A DNA stretch of 64,000 nt, taken from the NCBI RefSeq assembly GCF_009914755.1, contig NC_060926.1. One strand, written 5' to 3'. How positions within the stretch are numbered: the stretch's first letter is position 1; every line of letters starts with the position of its first letter. The position numbers and the translations under genes are program-made. The notes beneath the pieces were generated by a model. It was given only the letters and a program-made list of their open reading frames with translations. It did no database searches and was not told the DNA's origin. Source of the DNA: the human T2T-CHM13v2.0 reference genome, Homo sapiens. Of the stretch, positions 1 through 62,411 are shown one piece after another.

Positions 1-235
1 AGGTTCACTGGGAGGAGAAATCTTGATTTCAATACTTGCTTTTGAAAGTCTTCTAAAGTATATTAGTATACCTTCCTACCTTGATTTATTGAACAAGATG
101 ACTCACTGTTTTGAATATTCTCATTGTCCAGTCTTCTGTAAACTTACATGTCGAACCCTAGACTCACCTTGTAAATTAAATCAGAATGAAATTATTAATG
201 AAGTTTTATTTCTTGTTTTTTCCTTTCTCCTAGAA

Positions 236-367
236 CAGTGGTCTCAACGTGGCTGCACATACAAGTCACCAGAGAGGCTTTTAAAAGATGATATCTGTGT
301 CCCATCCCTAGGGATTCTGATTTAATTGGTCTGATTATTCTTACGCGCTAGGGCTGAGAAACCACTG
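236..367. mobile_element. MER5-type hAT-Charlie MITE
   Basis: Termini cagtggtctcaa...tgagaaaccactg and internal gattctgatttaattggtctg. Confidence 0.65.
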
Positions 368-551
368 TTCTGTAGGATGTAGGGGAGGAAATTTCTTGGG
401 CTTTTGTTGTTGCTCCCGTAAATTAGGATAATACTAAAAAAAATACTTGAGGTAGGAGTTACTAGACTATAGAGGGAATATTGTACATACATTTTCTGTC
501 AAATTTAAACATTTAACACCTGCATTTTTTATTTCAGATTTATTGCTAAAC

Positions 552-1397
552 ATGGGTGCATTTTTGGATAAACCCAAAACTGAAAAACATAATGCTCATG
601 GTGCTGGGAATGGTTTACGTTATGGCCTGAGCAGCATGCAAGGATGGAGAGTGGAAATGGAAGATGCACACACAGCTGTTGTAGGTATTCCTCACGGCTT
701 GGAAGACTGGTCATTTTTTGCAGTTTATGATGGTCATGCTGGATCCCGAGTGGCAAATTACTGCTCAACACATTTATTAGAACACATCACTACTAACGAA
801 GACTTTAGGGCAGCTGGAAAATCAGGATCTGCTCTTGAGCTTTCAGTGGAAAATGTTAAGAATGGTATCAGAACTGGATTTTTGAAAATTGATGAATACA
901 TGCGTAACTTTTCAGACCTCAGAAACGGGATGGACAGGAGTGGTTCAACTGCAGTGGGAGTTATGATTTCACCTAAGCATATCTACTTTATCAACTGTGG
1001 TGATTCACGTGCTGTTCTGTATAGGAATGGACAAGTCTGCTTTTCTACCCAGGATCACAAACCTTGCAATCCAAGGGAAAAGGAGCGAATCCAAAATGCA
1101 GGAGGCAGCGTGATGATACAACGTGTTAATGGTTCATTAGCAGTATCTCGTGCTCTGGGGGACTATGATTACAAGTGTGTTGATGGCAAGGGCCCAACAG
1201 AACAACTTGTTTCTCCAGAGCCTGAGGTTTATGAAATTTTAAGAGCAGAAGAGGATGAATTTATCATCTTGGCTTGTGATGGGATCTGGGATGTTATGAG
1301 TAATGAGGAGCTCTGTGAATATGTTAAATCTAGGCTTGAGGTATCTGATGACCTGGAAAATGTGTGCAATTGGGTAGTGGACACTTGTTTACACAAG
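552..1397 (+). CDS. PPM1B: PPM1B first coding exon, codons 1-282 (PP2C catalytic domain)
   Basis: Strong Kozak aaacATGG and Gly2 (myristoylation site in PPM1A/B). Motifs GWRxxMEDAH, YDGHAG (D60), [20 protein letters not shown] and CDGIWD (D243). Donor AAG|gtatgt at 1397/1398, phase 0. Confidence 0.98.
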
Positions 1398-3986
1398 GTA
1401 TGTAAACTTTTTTGTCATTAAAATAACATGTTAATTTTGAAAAGTTACGGTAGGTAAAGTTAAGCTAACTTAAAATTTTAAAACTTTTAATATTTTCACA
1501 GAAGCTGTATATTTTGAAGTACTTTACCAGAAATGAAACCATTGTTTTCTTTGCCATCCTTGTTTGTCCCAGCCTTCTAATTTGAAAATTAAGCTTGATA
1601 AATTTGAGGCATTTGTTGTCATTTAAGTACTTCATAGCTTGTTGCTGTAGCAAAAGCATTTACACAGAGTGACTTTTTCTTGACATTGGCAGTAACCATC
1701 TTATGCCTGATTATGAAGCAGCTTGATAAAATATGTATATAGTAGAATTCTGTACTAGATATTACTAAAAGATCAAGAGCCATGTGAAATATTGGAAGAT
1801 GTACTAGATGCCTAGCCTGTATAAAATTTAGTCCTGAGCCTCCTAGCAGTGAAGACAAAAACTGAAATAAAAATATGGGTTGTATATTTCTCATTGTCTT
1901 CTAAAAGCAGCTCTTATCTGGCAATACAATCTAAAAAGGATTTACATGTGGCTCTCTAAGTAATACATGACTTGGATAGTATCTTTTGTAGAAGATAAAA
2001 TTCTTTTCATATAGATGTTTTTATTATTTCTGATTAAAAACCAAAGGCTTCTATAAAACATAATCTTGTGAAAAATTCCTGTGGAACACTAAAGTTTATT
2101 TAGATTTGTAATTTTGTATGAATCATTGCTTGATACAGTAATAGAAAAAAAGTCCAGAGTAATAGATAATTGGCAATCCTTTGAATATCTTTAAAATACT
2201 CAGTTGTTTCAAGTGGGTTTTTGACAGCATCTATATATAATTCAATTAAAATTTGAGTTATCTGGCCAGTGTCTGGAGTGTGTAAGTATTTGACTGAAAA
2301 GATACCAAGGTAAAACTGACCTTTAGTTACATGAAATAAATAAAGGGTTTGACTTATTTATTCTGTCTAGATTAGAACCACTGTATCTCCCTACTCCAAA
2401 ATGTACTGTGGAAGGTATGGGCATAACCAGAAAGTTTTTCAGAAAGGATCTCTGGGTCTCTGGAAATGCCCAGATTTTGGTTAAATACCGATTTCTTTTT
2501 AATAGAATGGAAAGAGGCAGTTTTAAAAACAGAAGATTTAAAGGCCGTTCTTGTCAGTGGACAGCCTTTTTCTGAAAGGATTTTAATGATGGTACCTCTA
2601 GCTCCTCTGATTTTTATTTTTAACACACTGTATCTTTTTACTTCTGGATGAGTTAAGTAAAGAAGTATTGATGGTTGTCAGTGATCAAATAGTAAGTGGG
2701 TCTAAAATTATGTATTTGTCTTTGAACTCTAAATGAAGCAATTCTGACCTGTAGATTTTTGAGACAAGCATAGGCATATGTTTGTTGCCTGACTAGCTAA
2801 TGAAAACAGCATTTTCCCCAATTATAAAAAAAAAGGTATATACTTACTATTGGAAAAAAAATCCAGATGATGAAGAAAATATAGAGAAACACCCAAAATT
2901 TTGCCATCCACCCTAAGTCAGCTACTTTCATTGTTGTGGTGTATATTGTTCCAGTCTTTTCTGCCTGCCTGTGAGTGTGTGTATTTTTATAAAACCGAGA
3001 TGATTATACTTGTTATTCTACAGCCTGCCTTTTCCAACAATATATTGTAGAGAGATCTCCATGCCTATAAGTATTGATCTGTATCATTTTTCTTGGCTGC
3101 GTAGTATTTTATTGAAAGAATGAGGTTGTGAGGGAATAGCCAAAAAATCTATTAGGTCTGTAATTTGGACTAAGGAAAGAAGTTTGTGTTAGTAGATTAA
3201 CTCACTTATCCATTGAAAGGATGCTAGTTTTTGAGAATTTTGACTCGACCCTTCTGAATGAGGTTTAAATATTTCTGGTGGTATATCTTCACTTGCTAGC
3301 TTTTATCAATTTAGAGTGATTAAATGTTCATGTTGATGGTGTTAAAAGATTCTAGATGGCATCCTAGAATCTCAGAAATGAGGAATGATAATAACAGACA
3401 AGAAGTTGGGGCCCATGATTCATTCAATGTTAATGGAAGCTGACCATCATAGTTCCTTCTAATGGAGCTGCATTCAAATTGAAATCAGTTTGGAGGTTTG
3501 AATTGAAACAAAACAGACTTAAAATTATTTTTGAACCTTTGAAAGTTACTTATGGAAACCTTCATTTCTGTTTAACTTCGTAATTTTGTCTTTCCATTTA
3601 TTTGTATTGTAAAAGCAAGGGTTAGCAATAAGATCAAATATAATTACTTTGAATTTACTCAGAAAAATTGTAAGTTAAAAATTCATGGAAAGCACTTAGC
3701 GATTGCACAGTAGTTACCTGCTGTAAGAGGAGAGGAAACATTAATAAGTAGATGTTTCCCTGATAAGAGATTTAAATGAAGTCCTAGTTTTTTCTAACAC
3801 CTCCATCACTTGTCATACTTTCATAATTTATAAGCACTTTTATCTTAACTCATTAAATCTTGGGAGGTTATCATAATCATAATCGTGGTAGTATTAGTAA
3901 ATTATTGCTTTCTGTAAGCCAAACACTATTCTAAATACTTTACATATTTTAACTCATGTAATTTTCACAACCATATGAGGTAGTTA

Positions 3987-17311: not shown

Positions 17312-17423
17312 AGATTATGGAGAAGTCTGGCGAGGAAGGAATGCCTGATCTTGCCCATGTCATGCGCATCTTGTCTGCAGAAAATATCCCAAATTTGCCT
17401 CCTGGGGGAGGTCTTGCTGGCAA
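17312..17423 (+). CDS. PPM1B: PPM1B coding exon, 112 nt ([38 protein letters not shown])
   Basis: Acceptor ctacag and donor AA|gtaagt. Frame is continuous with its neighbours and encodes the PP2C C-terminal helical domain motif LPPGGGL. Confidence 0.97.
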
Positions 17424-17824: not shown

Positions 17825-17882
17825 GCGTAATGTTATTGAAGCTGTTTATAGTAGACTGAATCCACATAGAGAAAGTGATGGG
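17825..17882 (+). CDS. PPM1B: PPM1B coding exon, 58 nt (RNVIEAVYSRLNPHRESDG), last constitutive exon
   Basis: T12-ag acceptor and GGG|gtaagt donor. Ends codon 378 in phase 0. Confidence 0.97.
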
Positions 17883-17918
17883 GTAAGTTTTATTTTATTT
17901 CATAAGCATTTGAAGTAA
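17883..17918 (+). CDS. PPM1B: Candidate intron read-through tail VSFILFHKHLK* (389 aa)
   Basis: 11 in-frame codons then TAA, with AATAAA at 17970-17975. Resembles the recalled mouse tail VSLHLFPKYLK. Confidence 0.45.
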   Translation, partial: VSFILFHKHLK

Positions 17919-29334: not shown

Positions 29335-29343
29335 CAGAAATGA
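29335..29343 (+). CDS. PPM1B: Alternative acceptor exon giving QK* (380-aa isoform)
   Basis: ttttgtatttcctacttatttag|CAG AAA TGA. Matches a recalled human isoform ending in QK. Confidence 0.6.
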   Translation, partial: QK

Positions 29344-33999: not shown

Positions 34000-34655
34000 G
34001 GCTATTCTCAAGTATTTTGGTCTGAGGACCCACTTATACTCTTACAAATTGTATACTCCAGTGAACTTTTGCTTTTGTGGATACTATCGATATTTACTAT
34101 ATTAGAAATTAAAGCTGAGAAATTATACATACTGTTTTAATTTGTTAACAAAACAATTACATGTTAATATATAAACCATTTTATGAAAAATAATTGTCTT
34201 ATAAGTTAGGATACAAAAATTCAGTGTAAAAAGGACCATTTTTCATTTTTGTGAGCCCTTTAATGTTGAACTGAATTCTTGTTTGTGCTTTTGCGTTCAG
34301 TCTGTTGAAGTGTGGTATGGCCCGATGGTTGAAGTATATGAAGAAACCTGGCCTCACACAGATAGGTAGTTGGAAAACAGGAATATTTTAGTCACTTCAG
34401 ATAACTGTGGATATCAAAACTTGACAACTGATAGTTTCTTGAAGATTGGTTGCAATGTGAAATCGGAAAGTTTATTAGAGGACTTTTCTTAGTTTGTTAT
34501 GTTAAAATCCACTGGGTCTGTCTTGCATTTTGAATGGACCTTCTGGCTATGCATGATTTTGTCACATCATGAATTAGTCATTTGGAAAATACTGGTTCAC
34601 TGAATTATGCAGTTCTTCTAAATATTGATCCGTTATTCTGCAATGATTAAAGTTT
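34000..34655. mobile_element. Charlie1-family hAT transposon fragment
   Basis: ttttggtctgaggaccc...atcgatatttactatattagaaattaaagctgagaaa...tgcatgattttgt...gtcatttggaaaatactggttcactga. Confidence 0.65.
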
Positions 34656-34662
34656 TTTGTTA

Positions 34663-35791
<1,129 letters not shown>

Positions 35792-37243
35792 GTAATGAAC
35801 TGGTCTTCCTATATGAAAATAATGGCGCTGTCTTGCTAGTTGTGATTCTTCTTTCTACCCAGGCTTTAAAATGGTTTTTAATAACAGGAGAAATAATATT
35901 AGTCGGGGAAAAATGTTTCTATAATCATATTAGCCGTATATTTGAGCCAGGAATTGACAGCCTCATTAGTTTACTTTTCAAACTGCCTGATATATTTTCT
36001 GAAACCTTGGAAAATACGCAAACCAGAGGAATATATGGTGCCCAAGTCTTTATCCAGCTTCAATACTTGAAATTAACTGGAACATGTCCATCAAATATCT
36101 TTTGCTGACCAAATATTATTCTTCCTTGTCTTGAATTTAAGGTTATATTTTTTAAATGACATCTCACACTGACATTTCCTCTTCCAAATTGCCTTCATTT
36201 GTGTTTTGAAGTTCATCTGGTTTAAGTATTAAGGGAAAACGTGATAAGATTTCTTGTGGAACACATTTTGTTTTGAGAAGCTAAATAGTATTTAGTGAAA
36301 AATAGCAAAGTGTGATGTTTTTCACATATTAGACAATTCCTAGTTGTGCAAAAAATCCATTATATATGTAAAATAGTCAAATGTTAACATAATTGTTAAG
36401 ATGAATTCAAGCAATGATTTAATTTCAAAGCAATTCTGAAGTTACTTTTTAAATTCTGTACTAGAAAATGCACTGAAATGAAGTTACTTGCTTTTAGTTC
36501 ATAATGGGCATTATAACAATTTGCACTGTCGTTTTTATGCTAAATTGCTTTTAAGTTTTTTTCTGTTCAACTTTGGGAGTTATTTTGTAAACCCTAAAGA
36601 AAATGCTAAACAAGTGTTTGTTTTTGCCTGTTGTTTTGATGATTCGTGTATGTTACATTATGGTCTAGAAGTAAATAGGTGTAGCTACTAATAGAGAATA
36701 CATTGCTTTTCAGGCAGCATCACCGCCATTTCTCACTTCCTGCTGGCTTTTCTGGCTGTGGTATTTTCTCCCCCTTATTTCCTGTTTCAGTTTTATTTTA
36801 CCTGCAAACACCACTTACTAGTACACTGTTTTGTGCTCAGATGTAACTGGTAGATATGCTCTTCTAATTCAGAGGTGAGGGGCACTTAGGAAGTCAGTAT
36901 TTCTGCTATCTTGTAAGTATCCACAACTCCAGTGGGACACAAAAGAGCCATACCTTTTATGGAAAGGTAGAATGAAAGACTGGGCTTTACTTCTTTTAAC
37001 TAGTAGACCTAGTCTATAATATTGGCAACAGTGATTTTTTTTAATGATTAAATCTGTGCAACAAATGTATTCTTTCCATATAACATTCACCTATAATGCA
37101 TTTAAGATGAAGAGGACCAGTACCACCCAGGAGTTACCCTAATGGTGGGTCTGATACCTTCTTTCCCTCTCCTGAGTCGTTTACACTTACTTTTTTGGGC
37201 ACTGATTATGAAGAGGTGGTTTTGCTTCATTCCTAAGTCTTGA

Positions 37244-38563
<1,320 letters not shown>

Positions 38564-38930
38564 TCCGGTTGGATAAGCATGAAATAGTATATAATTTGCA
38601 TTTCTGATTACATGTGAGAAAAACATCTTTCCTATATATATTGGCCATTTGAGTTTCCTCTTTTCTGAATTGAATGCTCACACCACTTGTCCATTTTTCC
38701 ATTGGGTTTGTCTTTTTCTAATTGATTTGTCTTTTTCTATATAGTCTAGATACCAATCCTTTGTTATGCGAGCTGCAAAACCTCTCAGACTGTTTTTCTT
38801 TTTTTCTTTGTTTATGCAGTCTTGCTATTTGTCATTTTTTTGCTGTATGTTTTTCTTGTTTAGGAAATCATCCTCATCCCAAGTTCATATAGTCTCTAAT
38901 TTTTTTAATTTATATATTTTCATTTTCATA

Positions 38931-39022
38931 TCAGGTGGATAATGTAGTAACAAGGCTGAGGGGAGGCACATCTCATGTAAGTGTGAAAACCCAATCATCA
39001 TGCTTGTGAACTACAGAAGGAT
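38931..39022 (-). pseudogene. Retroposed U13 (SNORD13) snoRNA copy
   Basis: Reverse complement reads ATCCTTCTGTAGTTCACAAGCATGATGATTGGGTTTTCAC...GAGATGTGCCTCCCCTCAGCCTTGTTAC...ACATTATCCACCTGA, which is U13-like. Decayed tail at 38901-38930 and TCTCTAAT direct repeats on both sides. Confidence 0.88.
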
Positions 39023-40319
39023 CTCTAATGTTACCTTCCAGCCATTTTAGAAGTCTACCTCCCAAGCACATATATTTAGGTTTTTAATCATTCTTGAATT
39101 TCTTGTTACATAGTATGTGAACTAAGGAATCTTTATTTTCCATCCAGCTAGCTAATTGTGCCAACACCATGCCACCCCTGTCAGATTCCCATTCCCCAAA
39201 TATGTGTGGTCCATTTCTAGTTTCTTCTGCTCTATTGTTTTTTTGTTTTTGTTTTTGTTTTTTTTTTTTGTCTAACCCTGTGGAAATATCACATCATTTA
39301 GATTACTATAGCCTCTTAAGTGCTGACATCTAGCAGGTATACATTGTCTTCACCATATTTAAATTTAGTTCCTTTTATTTTTCATTTTCAAGACAAGGTC
39401 TCACTCTGTTGCCCAGGCTGGAGTGTAGTGGCACCATAGCGCACTGCAGCATCGAACTCCTGTCCTCAAGCAATCCTCCTGCCTCGGCCTCCCAAAGTAC
39501 TGGGAGTACAGACATGAGCCACCGCACATGGCCTAAATCTAGTTCCTTCTAATAAAATGCAACTAATAATCCACATTCTAATATAAAGAGCTTGCATCCA
39601 TTTGGGGATATAATATTGAAAATTGTTCGCCCTTCCTATAATTATTTTGTGTGTTTCTGTTGTACATTTACATTTTTAATTGTACTCTGGGACCATGTTG
39701 CTCACTCATTTTAACCTATCACTCCCTTTCCTCCCCCTGTAAAACAGGATTAGTAACTATACCATGCCAAGTCATGTGGGAGCCTAAGGCAAATGGAAAA
39801 CTCTGTAATGATTATTTTTTTCCCTTTTTCTTTTTTTCAGCAGAGAGTAGATTCTGTCTTATTTAAAATGTTTATATTATGTTCGTCATTTTGCATTAGT
39901 TTTGACTTTTTTAATGTTGCATTAAAATATCTAAAATTTAAAAAAAAATTTATCTTGATTACTTGCCATTCCTTAAATTTTGTCCCCAAAGCAAGTGCTT
40001 CACCCTGGTCCCAGATGATATGTGAATTCCTGGGCCTTTGAAAAGACAATTTTCCTGATTTAAGGCAGATGTTCCCAAGAAGGAATAACTCCTTAGCCTA
40101 CTAGTACCCATTAGCATGAAACAGCGTTTTCTGGGGTGGCTCAGTAAAATGGAGGGAGCGCTAAGCTAAGAGAGTCCCGAGCTCCAGCAGCAGCCAGGTG
40201 CTGTTGGCTTCCTTACGCAGTGAGCTGTCTCTTAATACTTTGAAAACATGATGCTGAGAGAAAGCAAGTTATAAGGGGATGTCTTGTATGTAAATTTGTC
40301 TCCAAAATTAATTCCAAAA

Positions 40320-41645
<1,326 letters not shown>

Positions 41646-42790
41646 GGTACAATTTATGGATAGTAGTATGTACATATAAAACACACATGAAAATAATACA
41701 CATTAACTTTAGAACAGTGGTTACTTTTTTAAAGATATTGGGAAAAGGAGCTTTTTATTTTCTCCTTAAAAAAGGTAAAGATGTCAAAATGTGAAATCTG
41801 GGCAATAGGTAAAATTGTTGTATTTTTCTCTAATTTTCCATATGTTTGAATTTTTCATAAAATCTTGAGTTAAATAAAATACAGAAACAAAATTCAGTGT
41901 CCTAAATTGCCTTTCAGGAAGAGGGTACACATTTACAATCTTAATAGTATACAAGAGTAGCTATGTTTTTCACTTTCTTACCAGTGTTGCACATTGCCAA
42001 GCTGCTGGGTAAAATATTGTAACCTACATTTTCTTGATTTAATTCCCAATTATTTGATTACTAGTGAGTGAAAATGTTTTTCTCATATTTGCTTATTCTT
42101 TTATTGTAAGCCTGCTCACACATGTTAATTGGCAGCATTTTTTCTTAACATTAAAGGATATTCTGTTTACATATTTATAATTTTTCTTGATTTGTGAGAG
42201 CTCTTTATACATGTAGGATTTTAACCATTATTCTGTTACCTATGTCATGGATTATTTTCCTGAGTTCGCCATTTGCCTTTCAATACTGTAATACTGTGTA
42301 TGGTTTGTTGTTGTTGTTTTTAAGGAAAGATATTCACAGATTGGACTAAGACCAAAGGACATCTAGCCATACTGAAATGACCTAATTTTTGAAAAAAACA
42401 CAATCTCAACCTCATAGGGATTTCCCCCCCAAAAAAATCACATCATGCAACTTCTGAGCTTTTTCTTACACAATAACTTTTTGTTTCGATGCCAGCTTTT
42501 CCTACAGGCAGAATAAGGGCTTTCTACTCACTATGATTGGAGCGGTACTAGAGAGAGGGCTAAGATGCTCAGAGCTGAAGAGTATAAGAGAGCTCTCCTT
42601 GGTCAAAAATATTCCCTTTTACCCTTCATATACACTTTTAAATCAAATAGGATTTATTTTGTTTTATTTTACTTTAAAAGAATTGAAAATTTACATACAG
42701 TAAACTACAAAGAGCTTTTGTGTTAAATTTGATATGTTTCAACAAGTGTCATACTTTTACATTCAAAATTTTCAGAATTTTCTTTAACAG

Positions 42791-42841
42791 TTTCATCAAC
42801 CTTCAGTTGCATACAAAGACAATTTTTTATATCCTAAGTAA
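42791..42841 (+). CDS. PPM1B: Candidate distal alternative exon FHQPSVAYKDNFLYPK*
   Basis: aattttctttaacag|TTT CAT CAA CCT TCA GTT GCA TAC. In phase 0 it resembles the recalled mouse tail FYQPSIAYSDNVFLL. Possible donor AA|gtaaat at 42837/42838. Confidence 0.55.
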   Translation, partial: FHQPSVAYKDNFLYPK

Positions 42842-43587
42842 ATATTTACATATATTTTAAGACATTGGCCTTTTGAATATTTGTACTTTAATACAACTGG
42901 AACTTATTTCTGAGGTAAAAATCTAATATAACATTTTCCTATAGATTTTTCCATTATCCCTTTATACCAGCTGTTACATAAGCCAATCTTTTCTCATTAT
43001 TTGAAGTTGTCCTTTATGACATATTCATGTATATGCTTGTATTTTTATAAGCATTCTATTTTATCGTTTTGTGTTGTGTGTCAGTACCATGTCATCTTAA
43101 TTATCATAGTTTTACTATACATTTTATTATCTGATAGGGAAAATGCCCCTTATTATTCTACATTTACAAAAATTGAATGTGTTTATTTTTCCAGATGAAT
43201 TTTTCAATAACTTGGCCAAGATATCCCTGCCAAATAAAAATCTCATTAATGTGTTGATTGAATTGTTGTATGTGTAGATTAATGTAGGGGTCATTGGTAT
43301 CTTTAGCCAAGGTGAGTTCCACCAGGAAGATGCTACATCTTTCTATTTATACAAGTGTTTTTAATGTCCCCAGTACAGTTTTGTAATTTTCTCCATATGA
43401 TCTACACCGTTCTTAAATTAATTCCTTGTTATTTTATATTTCTTATTGCTGTGATGAGTGAACCCCCCTCCTCAGTATATTTTAAATGTATACCTTCTTA
43501 GACAACTAGTTTTATTTACTTACCAACCCCAATCCTGCAAGAAAAAAAAAAACCATATATATATATATATTTCAATTTCTATCATAT

Positions 43588-43601
43588 CCACCAGATGGCA
43601 G
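43588..43601 (+). promoter_or_regulatory. CTCF core motif
   Basis: CCACCAGATGGCAG matches CCASYAGRKGGCRS at all 14 positions. Confidence 0.6.
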
Positions 43602-43777
43602 TCTTGGGCACGTCCATCTGTAAACCTGCTGAGAGCTCTGGTGACAAGAAAGGCAGTGGCTGGCAGACCTTCCAAGCACTCAGAAGCACGCGGACAAAAA
43701 GGTTTTTTTGTAAACCCGAACGAAAAATAAACCCAGCATTATATAATTATAGTATTTGTACTGCTGTTAACCTTTAA
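43595..43777 (+). CDS. PPM1B: Candidate distal alternative last exon MAVLGTSICKPA... (60 aa in phase 0)
   Basis: ccaccag|ATG GCA GTC TTG GGC ACG TCC ATC TGT AAA CCT resembles the recalled mouse tail MADLSTSICKPS. AATAAA at 43726-43731. Confidence 0.55.
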   Translation: MAVLGTSICKPAESSGDKKGSGWQTFQALRSTRTKRFFCKPERKINPALYNYSICTAVNL

Positions 43778-44186
43778 TCTTATAACCCATTAGTGGAGAC
43801 AGAGAAGGACTGTCACTGTGCCCTTCAAAATCATATTTTTTCCTGTCCATGTGATAAACACCTGTGGCTTCTTGGCAGCACTTTTGGTTTGATTCCAGGG
43901 ACTCTTATGGTTAAAGGCAGGCTTTAATCTGGCGTTGTTTTCCTTCTCCTAAAAGCACCATTTAAATCGGAAGTTACTGGATTTCTAAACGGTTAAGACC
44001 GTCTTCCGACTGGTTTTTATCATTCCCAGATCTCTTCTGAAAGGAGGTGGTGTGCATAGTTAATATGAAAGGAACTGGCTTGTTCTACGCGAATACAAAT
44101 CTGAATAACTCTTATATATTAGACCTTTTTTTTTTTTTACTTTAGTGACTTCCAGTATCTATATTTAGAAGTGTATAATTACTTGA

Positions 44187-44187
44187 G

Positions 44188-44220
<33 letters not shown>

Positions 44221-44270
44221 TATATAGTGTGTGTGTGTGTATCTATGTGTATATATATACATATACACAT
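44187..44270. repeat. Compound (TA)n/(CA)n/(TG)n microsatellite
   Basis: Directly visible in the sequence. Confidence 0.9.
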
Positions 44271-44809
44271 GTGTTTTTAGGGCTTTTGGCTTTTTTAGGG
44301 CGGGACACGTGAATCTGGCAGTTGAGACAGAATTTTTCCTATAGCGGTGTAACAGTGTACAATACTAAACTAATGAAATGTCTTTCACTATCAACAATTT
44401 ACGTATCCATGCTGATTGCTTTAACACTAGAAAAAATATGCCAAAATAAACTACATTTTCTAGGCGCTTTCACACCAAAAACACACACACACAGCTGCTT
44501 GCCCATTTGAGAACAGCCAATAAAGCAAACTCTTTGAATGATTTGTGGTTTTGTGTCCCCAGAAGTTTTAACAGTAGTTCTGAAGATTTGTCATTTGTGT
44601 GTGCTTCAAAGATAGAGTAATACATTTTATAGCTGGGCAGATCTCTAACTATATAGTTATAAAATCTCAAAGCTGAGAAAACCCTGAATGCCAGATGATC
44701 TTTCAGCAGCCTCTAGTGTGAGTGTCAGGAATGAGTTCATTTCCATCTTTGATCAGCTCTGCCTGTCGTGTTGCATCTCTGCTTCTTCTCCTCAGTTGTC
44801 TTATTAACC

Positions 44810-45355
44810 CTCGGGGCTATGAAAATAAGTATTTAAAAGCTCCTGGAACCCACAAAAAACACTAAGCCTTGAGAGAGATGTAGTTGATCTGAGTCACATA
44901 TGCTAACAACTTTTTATTTCCCTGATTATTCTTCCTGTTCTGTACAATGACTAGAGAGAATAAAACTACATCAGGTACAAAAACCACCTGCCTTCTTAAT
45001 TAATGACCTTTGTTATAGATTAACTTCTCCTTTGTTGTCCTGCTTCACTTAGATCAGATGACAGAAAACCCATGACTACACCCTCTGTAAAAGGTGTTCA
45101 GTGTACCTTTCCCAAGAGAAACACTGCCTGTAACCAAATTGCTGTAACTATGTGCCAACCTTGTATGAAAAATGTTGCAATCCTGCCAAAAACTCCTGTC
45201 TCTGCCTATGGAAATGAAACCTTGAGCTTCCTTCCTTCAGCACGCTGACTCCATTCCTTTGGAGCTGGTGCTCCTGGGTGGGCTGTCCTCAAACTCTGCG
45301 CTTGAATTATCTGTTTAAATTAGATTCTGACCTTTTTGATTATTTTAGGTTGATA
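44810..45355 (+). mobile_element. Probable ERV1-class solo LTR
   Basis: LTR-like composition ending gattattttaggttgata. Subfamily not assigned. Confidence 0.45.
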
Positions 45356-47254
45356 GGGCCAAAATTTAACCCCACCTATTAGGATAACTTCCAGCATATT
45401 CTCTTTTCTGTCCCCCATTATTTCATTGATTACCATTATATATCCTAACGCCAACTGTATTCACCATCCAGGACCCTTTTCTCCCAATGTGCTCTCATTT
45501 TCTTGATCATTCTTAAAGTATGCAACCCAGAACTGAACATTTATGGGTAGCAGAACTGTCTCCTCCTTTATTCTCATTAATACTTTTCTGTTCTTCTATT
45601 TAACACCGAAATATTGAACTAGATTTTCTGGCAACTGCATGATACTGTTTGAGTCCTTCGAGCTTATTTTTGGTTGGTGTTTTGGTTAACCTATTTTGCA
45701 GGACCTTTATTTGTTCCTATTAAGTTTTCTTGGGTAAAATTTATTAACCTTTTGAGTTGGTTGTGGATTTATCTAAGATATGTTAGCTATCTTCTTCTTT
45801 CCAGTAACTCCAAAATTTCATACATAAACCTCCCATACTGAATGAAACAGGTCCAAGTACTGAGGCCCTGTGGGAGGCCTCAGAAACTTCTCTTCAGTAG
45901 GATGCAAATTGACCAATCTTTTACTCAACACCCATTAGGTAAGAATTTCAGCAATGTACTGATCCACTTATCTGCTCATATTTCTCCAGTTTATCTACAA
46001 GGATATCATAGGATTTTACATTCTTTGCAGAAGTCACTTGCATATAACCCAGCTTAAGCGGAGGCTTCACTTTGACCTATTCCTCTAGGTCCTTGCAAAT
46101 TTTTGGTGTTGGTTTTTGCTTGTGGTATTGCTTGCATCATTTATGCATTTTAAAAATCCTGAGCTTGTTACAATTCTTCCTGTGTAACTGCTGATTTCTT
46201 GGTTTTGTTTTTATTGTTGTTTTATTATTTTTAGGTACCTCTGCCTTTTTATTCTGTATGTATGTTATACTTCAATTAAAATATTTTTAAAAATATCCCT
46301 GATGCATTGAAAAAAATCAAAACTACAAGTTGCTCTGCAACCTGAAGGCCAACTGTAGCAGTGTAGGTTGGTTAAGGTAGAACAGTGCCTCATCCACAGA
46401 CACCAGTCGCATCACAGACACGTGGACTTAGATGTTGCAACCACTCTCCAGCAAGTGGCAGGAAAGTGTTCTAATTCTAATGAAACTAGTATAGTTATAT
46501 TGCAACAAATACCTGACAGGTGGAAGTAACATGACTTGCAAAAAAAGTGCTTTTTTTGGAAGTGGTTTTTCCAATTTACCAAATCTGCCACATGGGCCAG
46601 CAGCAGCCCTGGAGCCTTGAATTCCTCTGGGAGAGGAGACGAGGTAGCTCTGCACCCTACATTCTCCCCTACCTGATATATATCCTCTTTCTTAAATAAA
46701 AAAAATAAAAAAAAAAAAAGAACAATGGAAAAAGGCGACACTGTAGGACTGTGGCACAGGAATTAAGCAGCATCTGAGCAATCTTAAAGGACCAGTTTTG
46801 GTTTCCTAGGCTGGAGTTCAGCCTTTTTGGAAGGGCCTGTGACACACTCAGTATGTCCTTCTACAACTCTTATTCTCTTGACTTCCTCAGTCACCAGGCT
46901 GAAAAAATAGCAAATGAGAAAAAGTAGAAAGGAAGGGAATGCCCCAGATGTAGATAGCATTGTAAATTTCTGCAGATATATGTGTTATTTATAATGTGTA
47001 TATAGATAGTGTATATTTTTGTGCACATTTCGGTATATATGCTATACTTCAATAAAATTTTAAAGAACCTTGAATAATGCAATAAACCTTCATATATATT
47101 TATTTATATGAGGTTTCTGTTGGTGGAAAACATGGAAACAGTTGAATAGATGTGGATATGCTTCGGAGAATATGGATTAAAATATAAATTACATGTATGA
47201 AAAAGTCACTTTCAGGGAAGGAGGGCACACCTTCCAAGAGACAGGCAACAGTTT

Positions 47255-47700
47255 AGTCAGGGTAAGCTAACTTGCTATAACAGAACCAAATCTGTAATGT
47301 TCAAACATAACAGAAGTTTATTTCTTGTTCATCTATAGACCAGGCTAGGTGTTCCAGGTCAGAGGCTTCTTCTCTTCCATGTGGTGACTCAGGTTTGAGG
47401 CGTTTTGCATCTGGTGGCTACTATCACCCAGGGCCTTATTGTTATATATATCCCACCAGCAGAAGGGGAAAGAGAGCAAGGGAAGGGTACCCCTGCTTCT
47501 TCAAAGCCTCAACCTGAAGGTGGTGCACTTTGTTGCTATTCGCACTTCGTTGATGAGAACATGGCCACACTTAGCTGTAGGTGCAAGGTGTGGGGCTGAG
47601 AAACTATTCCTGGTTAGTAGCTGCATCGCAGCTACAACTCAGTTACTATGGAAGACAGGAAGCACAGTGTGAGAGCAACTCCTGTGTCTGCCACAGGCAG
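47255..47700. mobile_element. Old MaLR LTR (MLT1-like)
   Basis: agtcagggtaagcta...acagaagtttatttcttgttcat...acatggccacacttagctg. Confidence 0.55.
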
Positions 47701-47954
47701 CCATTCTCCAGAGCAGGTAAACAGGGTCCACCACTTCGGAGAGATGAGGCATACATATTAAGGCACTGTGGACAGAGAAAACGAATGATTCAAACACAAA
47801 CTTCAAAAATGAGATACTCCACGCACCCACCAGAATTACTAAGATTAAAAAGACTGATAATACCATATGTTGGCGAAGGTTTGTAACAACCAGAACTGTT
47901 GGCATTACTGGTGGAAGCATAATGACATAATCATGTTGGGAAAAGTTTTGGAGT

Positions 47955-59998: not shown

Positions 59999-62170
<2,172 letters not shown>

Positions 62171-62411
62171 ACACAGGAAAACAAACAAACAAAAGAAACC
62201 GTAGAAGGTATTTAGGTGGGGTGGGGGAAGGGGTTGTCACTTTTTATTTCATACACTTCTGTATCATTTGAATTTCTAAAAAAAGTTTGTATCAGGATTG
62301 TTAACAAAAAATGAATAAGAGAAAATAAATAAGTTTAGAAGGGTCAAAAAAAAAGAGAGAAACTGCTCAACTTGATAAAGGATAACTGTGTTACGACTAA
62401 ACCTAACATCA

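What the first reader, a model, noticed from the sequence alone, without database searches (positions are those of the whole stretch)
42791..42841. Hidden distal exon FHQPSVAYKDNFLYPK, too short for the ORF track
It follows a plausible acceptor (aattttctttaacag). Its first 11 residues match the recalled mouse tail FYQPSIAYSDN at 8 positions, and two of the three differences are similar residues. It could terminate here (TAA 42839-41; AATAAA 43233-38; 394 aa) or splice out at AA|gtaaat (42837).
Basis: partly seen in the sequence, partly recalled or inferred. Interest (0 to 1): 0.7.

Follow-up and report, generated by a model that had tools for sequence, protein, structure and literature searches.

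The report
Unannotated human PPM1B last coding exon
This 51-base stretch is the human counterpart of a short tail that a kangaroo-rat gene model splices onto the phosphatase PPM1B, so humans likely have one more, unannotated PPM1B isoform, although no human transcript of it was seen.

Summary
42791-42841 follows an AG, reads FHQPSVAYKDNFLYPK-stop, and is in phase with the PPM1B exon ending at 17882 (394 aa). A kangaroo-rat PPM1B model (P0008, isoform X3) ends in a 15-residue tail after that same exon. The tail maps to exactly 42791 (score 51, next 21; 0 of 2000 shuffles), with 10 of the first 11 residues identical. So this is the human orthologue of a rodent alternative last exon (mouse PP2C-beta-3 type, recalled), absent from the RefSeq table. 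Human use is not shown. Against it: only 1 of 104 anchored tails was of this type, the last codons look shifted by one base against the rodent (492 of 19792 controls as good), and a second AG 15 bases upstream would give N-F-L-stop. The proposed donor at 42837 is weak. New here: the AATAAA at 43233 lies in an old antisense LINE-1 remnant (42886-43460), while the exon itself shows no LINE-1 similarity. Verdict: a known kind of isoform and a likely annotation gap. About 60% that it is still spliced in humans.

The parts
17825..17882 (+). Annotated PPM1B exon whose donor would splice to the candidate; ends codon 378 in phase 0
   Evidence: Gene table
42606..42749 (.). Piece of an old multi-copy repeat just upstream of the acceptor (resembles an L1M 3' end; name recalled)
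   Evidence: (30 matches listed)
42750..42790 (+). Acceptor region: candidate branch adenosines 42759 and 42765, AG at 42789-90
   Evidence: 89th percentile of 4342 plus-strand AGs on a home-made score, annotated acceptors 30th to 99.9th
42774..42775 (+). Competing upstream AG; its use gives in-frame N-F-L-stop, 381 aa
   Evidence: closer than in any of 9 annotated acceptors
42791..42841 (+). Coding part of the alternative last exon, FHQPSVAYKDNFLYPK-stop
42824..42841 (+). Last codons, likely shifted by one base against the rodent; the other frame reads F-I-S-stop with TAA at 42835-37
   Evidence: 492 of 19792 random starts as good
42838..42843 (+).
42915..42920 (+). Second possible donor GAG|GTAAAA (6 of 9), 73 bases after the stop
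42886..43460 (-). Old LINE-1 ORF2 remnant, antisense to PPM1B, forming most of the predicted 3' UTR; not among the longest masked stretches listed
   Evidence: 59% over 553 columns, collinear with the young L1 at 60387-61010, 0 of 200 shuffles
43233..43238 (+). AATAAA with the most T/G-rich downstream of 27 A(A/T)TAAA sites in 34000-47900; predicted poly(A) signal, inside the L1 remnant
43195..43311 (+). Exon-like stretch inside the L1 remnant: clean acceptor and the only 9 of 9 donor among 510 GT sites
43595..47771 (+). Annotated downstream alternative last exon of PPM1B (438-aa product), the competitor for the same donor
   Evidence: Gene table

Best explanation
The stretch matches, at its first base after an AG, the tail that a kangaroo-rat PPM1B model carries, and it is likely a still-used, minor alternative last exon of human PPM1B. 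Shown: position, phase, stop and likeness to the rodent tail. Inferred: the donor at 17882 skips the last exons at 29335, 29755 and 31658 and joins AG 42790; 16 codons are read; the RNA is cut after the AATAAA at 43233, which an old antisense LINE-1 supplies. The predicted 394-aa protein keeps the catalytic and C-terminal helical domains and swaps only a short outer tail, which would tune partners, location or turnover rather than catalysis. Testis germ cells are the likely site, by recalled analogy with mouse PP2C-beta-3. Odds: orthology about 0.97, splicing in humans about 0.6, a protein with its own role about 0.35.
For: Phase 0 and 394 aa. P0008 carries the tail directly after the orthologous exon. 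It maps only to 42791; in the same scan the tails of P0005, P0121 and P0122 land on annotated exons 31658 and 29755. 10 of 11 residues kept: a neutral model gives 66, 219, 970 and 3339 of 100000 at assumed base identities 0.65, 0.70, 0.75, 0.80. Acceptor score within the range of the annotated ones. Best downstream context of 27 poly(A) hexamers. Pfam PP2C and PP2C_C end at P0008 residue 432 and the match to PPM1A structure 3fxj at 441, before the tail at 443-457.
Against: No human transcript or peptide seen; the RefSeq table lists 8 transcripts without it. One rodent only: 1 of 104 anchored tails among 150 proteins, 46 had no anchor; the database collapses isoforms at 90% identity. P0008 is a gene model and may be projected from the mouse protein. 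The last 4 rodent residues do not match in frame. An AG at -17 competes. The T/G-rich context may be only L1 composition. No retrocopy holds the junction, which is weak either way.
Confidence: 0.6

Rival explanations
1. A decaying relic: the exon was used in the primate-rodent ancestor and is used in rodents, but humans no longer splice it at a useful level.
For: Probable one-base shift in the last codons; AG at -17, closer than in any of 9 annotated acceptors; absent from RefSeq.
Against: 10 of 11 residues, the AG and an open frame are kept. The shift touches only the last residues and adds one. Its support is modest (492 of 19792).
Confidence: 0.27
2. The exon is spliced but is internal or mis-ended: it leaves by the donor at 42915 or 43312 to the 43595 exon, which puts the stop 73 or 470 bases before a junction and would trigger nonsense-mediated decay; or the upstream AG is used and a 381-aa form results.
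For: 9 of 9 donor at 43312, 6 of 9 donor at 42915, upstream AG in frame with a stop.
Against: The strong donor has its own clean acceptor at 43195 inside the L1 remnant. The rodent tail begins at the downstream AG. An AATAAA lies before the strong donor.
Confidence: 0.12
3. A chance open stretch after an intronic AG.
For: AG plus 16 open codons is common in AT-rich introns; about 11% of AGs score as well.
Against: Unique best match of an independently fetched rodent tail, starting at the first base after the AG; 0 of 2000 shuffles.
Confidence: 0.01

Closest known systems
Dipodomys merriami PPM1B isoform X3 (P0008, database gene model)
   Same: Same splice position after the shared exon; 10 of the first 11 tail residues identical; core 364 of 377 identical.
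   Different: Rodent tail is 15 residues ending VFIL; the human one is 16 ending FLYPK, likely by a one-base shift.
Mouse PP2C-beta-3 (Ppm1b testis isoform; recalled from Hou 1994, Kato 1995 and the UniProt isoform list, none seen here)
   Same: Recalled as a short C-terminal splice variant with this kind of tail.
   Different: Cloned as cDNA in mouse (recalled); no human transcript seen here and none in the RefSeq table.
Annotated human PPM1B C-terminal isoforms (479, 387, 380 and 438 aa as rebuilt)
   Same: Same 378-residue core and same donor; only the last exon differs.
   Different: Those are annotated. The 479- and 387-aa tail types make up 55 and 25 of 104 anchored tails, fish to mammals, against 1 for this one.
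Transposon-derived exons and poly(A) sites (antisense LINE-1)
   Same: The predicted 3' UTR and AATAAA lie in an antisense L1 ORF2 remnant.
   Different: The acceptor and coding part show no similarity to L1 or to the upstream repeat.

Membership tests
PPM1B short-tail isoform of the rodent beta-3 type | Tail joined in phase 0 directly after the exon that ends codon 378 | tested here: met
PPM1B short-tail isoform of the rodent beta-3 type | Tail sequence homologous to the rodent tail | tested here: met
   10 of the first 11 residues against P0008; 0 of 2000 shuffles
PPM1B short-tail isoform of the rodent beta-3 type | Same frame and stop to the end of the tail | tested here: not met
   0 of the last 4 rodent residues match in frame; a one-base shift fits better
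PPM1B short-tail isoform of the rodent beta-3 type | Catalytic and C-terminal PP2C domains left whole | tested here: met
   Pfam PF00481 and PF07830 end before the tail in P0008; human core 364 of 377 identical
PPM1B short-tail isoform of the rodent beta-3 type | Own poly(A) site | tested here: inconclusive
   AATAAA 43233 with T/G-rich downstream, but inside an L1 remnant; no 3'-end data
PPM1B short-tail isoform of the rodent beta-3 type | Spliced transcript, enriched in testis | not testable with these tools
   No RNA data on hand; mouse expression is recalled
PPM1B short-tail isoform of the rodent beta-3 type | AG and frame conserved across mammals at DNA level | not testable with these tools
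   No other mammalian genome held; one rodent protein only
Exonised LINE-1 | Acceptor and coding bases align to L1 | tested here: not met
   818 of 2000 shuffles as good against the young L1; anchored profile of 25 L1 pieces: 84 of 200 and 55 of 150 shuffles as good, while the control 42886-42995 gave 0 of 200
Exonised LINE-1 | Predicted 3' UTR and poly(A) hexamer lie in L1 sequence | tested here: met
   42886-43460 collinear with L1 ORF2, minus strand, 0 of 200 shuffles

The most novel reading that the evidence does not exclude
Human germ cells make an unannotated 394-aa PPM1B whose 11-residue tail core has been kept by selection since the primate-rodent split as a targeting motif, whose last residues were rewritten by a one-base shift, and whose mRNA end is set by a poly(A) signal recruited from an ancient antisense LINE-1.
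Probability: 0.25. Interest if true: 0.45.

Novelty: new member of a known kind. Interest (0 to 1): 0.3.

Why it matters
If spliced, it adds a missing coding exon and isoform to a much-studied phosphatase that lies in the 2p21 deletion interval (PMC3527508, passage seen). Variants there are now read as deep intronic and the peptide would be missing from RefSeq-based search sets. It would also make a rodent isoform testable in human sperm development. It is an annotation gap of an ordinary kind, not a new mechanism.

Tried and rejected
Exon born from LINE-1: suggested by the flanking remnants, tested three ways and not supported. An nhmmer profile missed even the known L1 stretch and so says nothing; the power check is circular. 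Splicing out at 42837: weak donor. More species with the tail: region searches added none, and the scan of 50% representatives gave 4 hits, of which the 3 read were unrelated repeat proteins. Retrocopy with the junction: none. Rfam over 28000-50000: only snoU13 at 38929-39022. One search returned Alu-like hits and was of no use. Papers: 10 searches listed none describing this exon; 8 look-ups were not held. Most subscription papers are outside the library, so this does not show that it is unpublished. No fold or complex job was run: a 16-residue outer tail would not be resolved.

Full report
Observation. Window 42791-42841 reads FHQPSVAYKDNFLYPK-stop after an AG at 42789-90. The four shared PPM1B coding exons total 1134 bases and end in phase 0, so the join gives 394 aa. 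The 251 bases around the exon matched only themselves in the genome search.

Independent homologue. A search with the first coding exon listed 120 of 999 hits. One, kangaroo-rat PPM1B isoform X3 (P0008), ends in FHQPSVAYTDNVFIL straight after the shared exon. Scanned over 46,074 forward-frame positions downstream of 17882, that tail scores 51 at 42791 and 21 at the next best place; 0 of 2000 shuffled tails reach 51. Of nine other proteins run the same way, three landed on annotated exons 31658 and 29755, five found no clear place and one had no anchor. Ten of the first 11 residues are identical. A neutral substitution model keeps that many in 66 to 3339 of 100000 trials for assumed base identities of 0.65 to 0.80 (the identities are my assumption). 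This points to selection over much of the time since the split, not necessarily today. Limits: P0008 is a gene model. Among 150 proteins fetched, 104 had the anchor and only 1 had this tail; 55 had the long tail, 25 the 387-aa type and 23 others. The database clusters at 90% identity, which hides isoforms. Searches added no second species.

Signs of drift in human. The last four rodent residues match none of the human ones in frame. With one base shifted at codon 12 the human bases read F-I-S-stop (13 of 16 positions identical, the stop in the rodent position) or, shifted the other way, Y-I-L (12 of 16). Random intron starts did as well in 492 of 19792 trials, so this is suggestive only, and the lineage that changed is unknown. 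A second AG lies at 42774-75, closer than in any of nine annotated acceptors; its use gives N-F-L-stop and 381 aa. The branch candidate at 42765 is only 10 bases from that AG, which by the usual scanning rule (own knowledge) would favour the downstream AG; candidates at 42751 and 42759 would favour the upstream one. On a home-made score the acceptor is at the 89th percentile of 4342 AGs; annotated ones run from the 30th to the 99.9th.

How the exon ends. The donor after 42837 matches 6 of 9 consensus positions, as do or exceed 70 of 510 GT sites in 34000-43500. Five of six annotated exon ends tested score 7 or 8; the sixth, 17376, is not a GT donor. Donors at 42915 (6 of 9) and 43312 (9 of 9) would leave the stop 73 or 470 bases before a junction. 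The AATAAA at 43233 has the most T/G-rich downstream of 27 hexamers in 34000-47900. A terminal exon is the best reading.

Repeats. 42886-43460 aligns collinearly to the minus strand of the young LINE-1 at 60387-61010, 59% over 553 columns, score 4261 against a highest shuffle of 2500, 0 of 200 (Pfam RVT_1 in that element). The AATAAA, an acceptor at 43195 and the 9 of 9 donor lie inside it. 42606-42749 is a piece of another multi-copy repeat. I tested whether the exon between them is repeat-derived. It is not detectably so: 818 of 2000 shuffles as good against the young L1, 84 of 200 and 55 of 150 against an anchored profile of 25 L1 pieces whose control passed at 0 of 200 shuffles and 2 of 200 random window pieces, and 82 of 200 against the upstream family.

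Mechanism. Shown: position, phase, stop, rodent likeness, L1 origin of the predicted 3' UTR. Inferred: splicing from 17882 past three nearer last exons, cleavage after 43233, and a protein with whole PP2C and PP2C_C domains (the PPM1A structure 3fxj aligns to P0008 residue 441) plus a 16-residue outer tail that would act on partners, location or turnover. Testis is an analogy with mouse beta-3, recalled.

Literature. I saw search listings for ten searches; none describes this exon. Passages seen: PMC3854238 states that PPM1B has six splice variants; PMC3527508 places PP2C-beta in the 2p21 deletion; PMC8058998, PMC11786752 and PMC4014440 gave nothing on tails; PMC6551743 gave no passage. Two supplementary files of PMC10953240 hold no Ppm1b; other files of that paper may exist. 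The mouse cloning papers were not held and are recalled only. GENCODE and long-read catalogues were not seen and may already list the exon.

Verdict. A real orthologue of a rodent alternative last exon of PPM1B, missing from the RefSeq table. About 0.6 that humans still splice it. New member of a known kind; interest 0.3.

Noticed in passing
window 17883-17918: Reading through the donor at 17882 gives VSFILFHKHLK-stop (389 aa), 7 of 11 identical to the tail of P0133, a protein with the two preceding exons spliced. A second unannotated, possibly conserved tail (mouse beta-2 type, recalled).
   Followed up: partly
window 43195-43311: 117-base exon-like stretch inside the antisense L1 remnant, with a clean acceptor and a 9 of 9 donor; joined to 17882 it would give 398 aa with the stop inside. 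No homologue seen.
   Followed up: partly
window 43595 onward: The annotated distal exon gives a 60-residue tail (438 aa); from recall the mouse counterpart tail is much shorter, so the stop may have moved. Not tested.
   Followed up: no
window 29755: The acceptor of the selected transcript's last exon has a purine-rich tract and scores at only the 30th percentile of AGs.
   Followed up: no
window 38929-39022: LOC124906174 is a snoU13-like copy on the minus strand (Rfam RF01210, 77 bits).
   Followed up: yes
window 60022-62201: 3' part of a young LINE-1 on the plus strand, ORF2 broken by stops, 97-98% to many genomic copies.
   Followed up: partly
window 17376: The annotated shorter exon end 17312-17376 is followed by GCAGAA, 2 of 9 donor consensus; it may be a model artefact or not a donor.
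   Followed up: no
L005-L007 (chr8) and L010 (chr3): Broken PP2C-like copies elsewhere in the genome, likely old retrocopies; none carries the tail junction.
   Followed up: no
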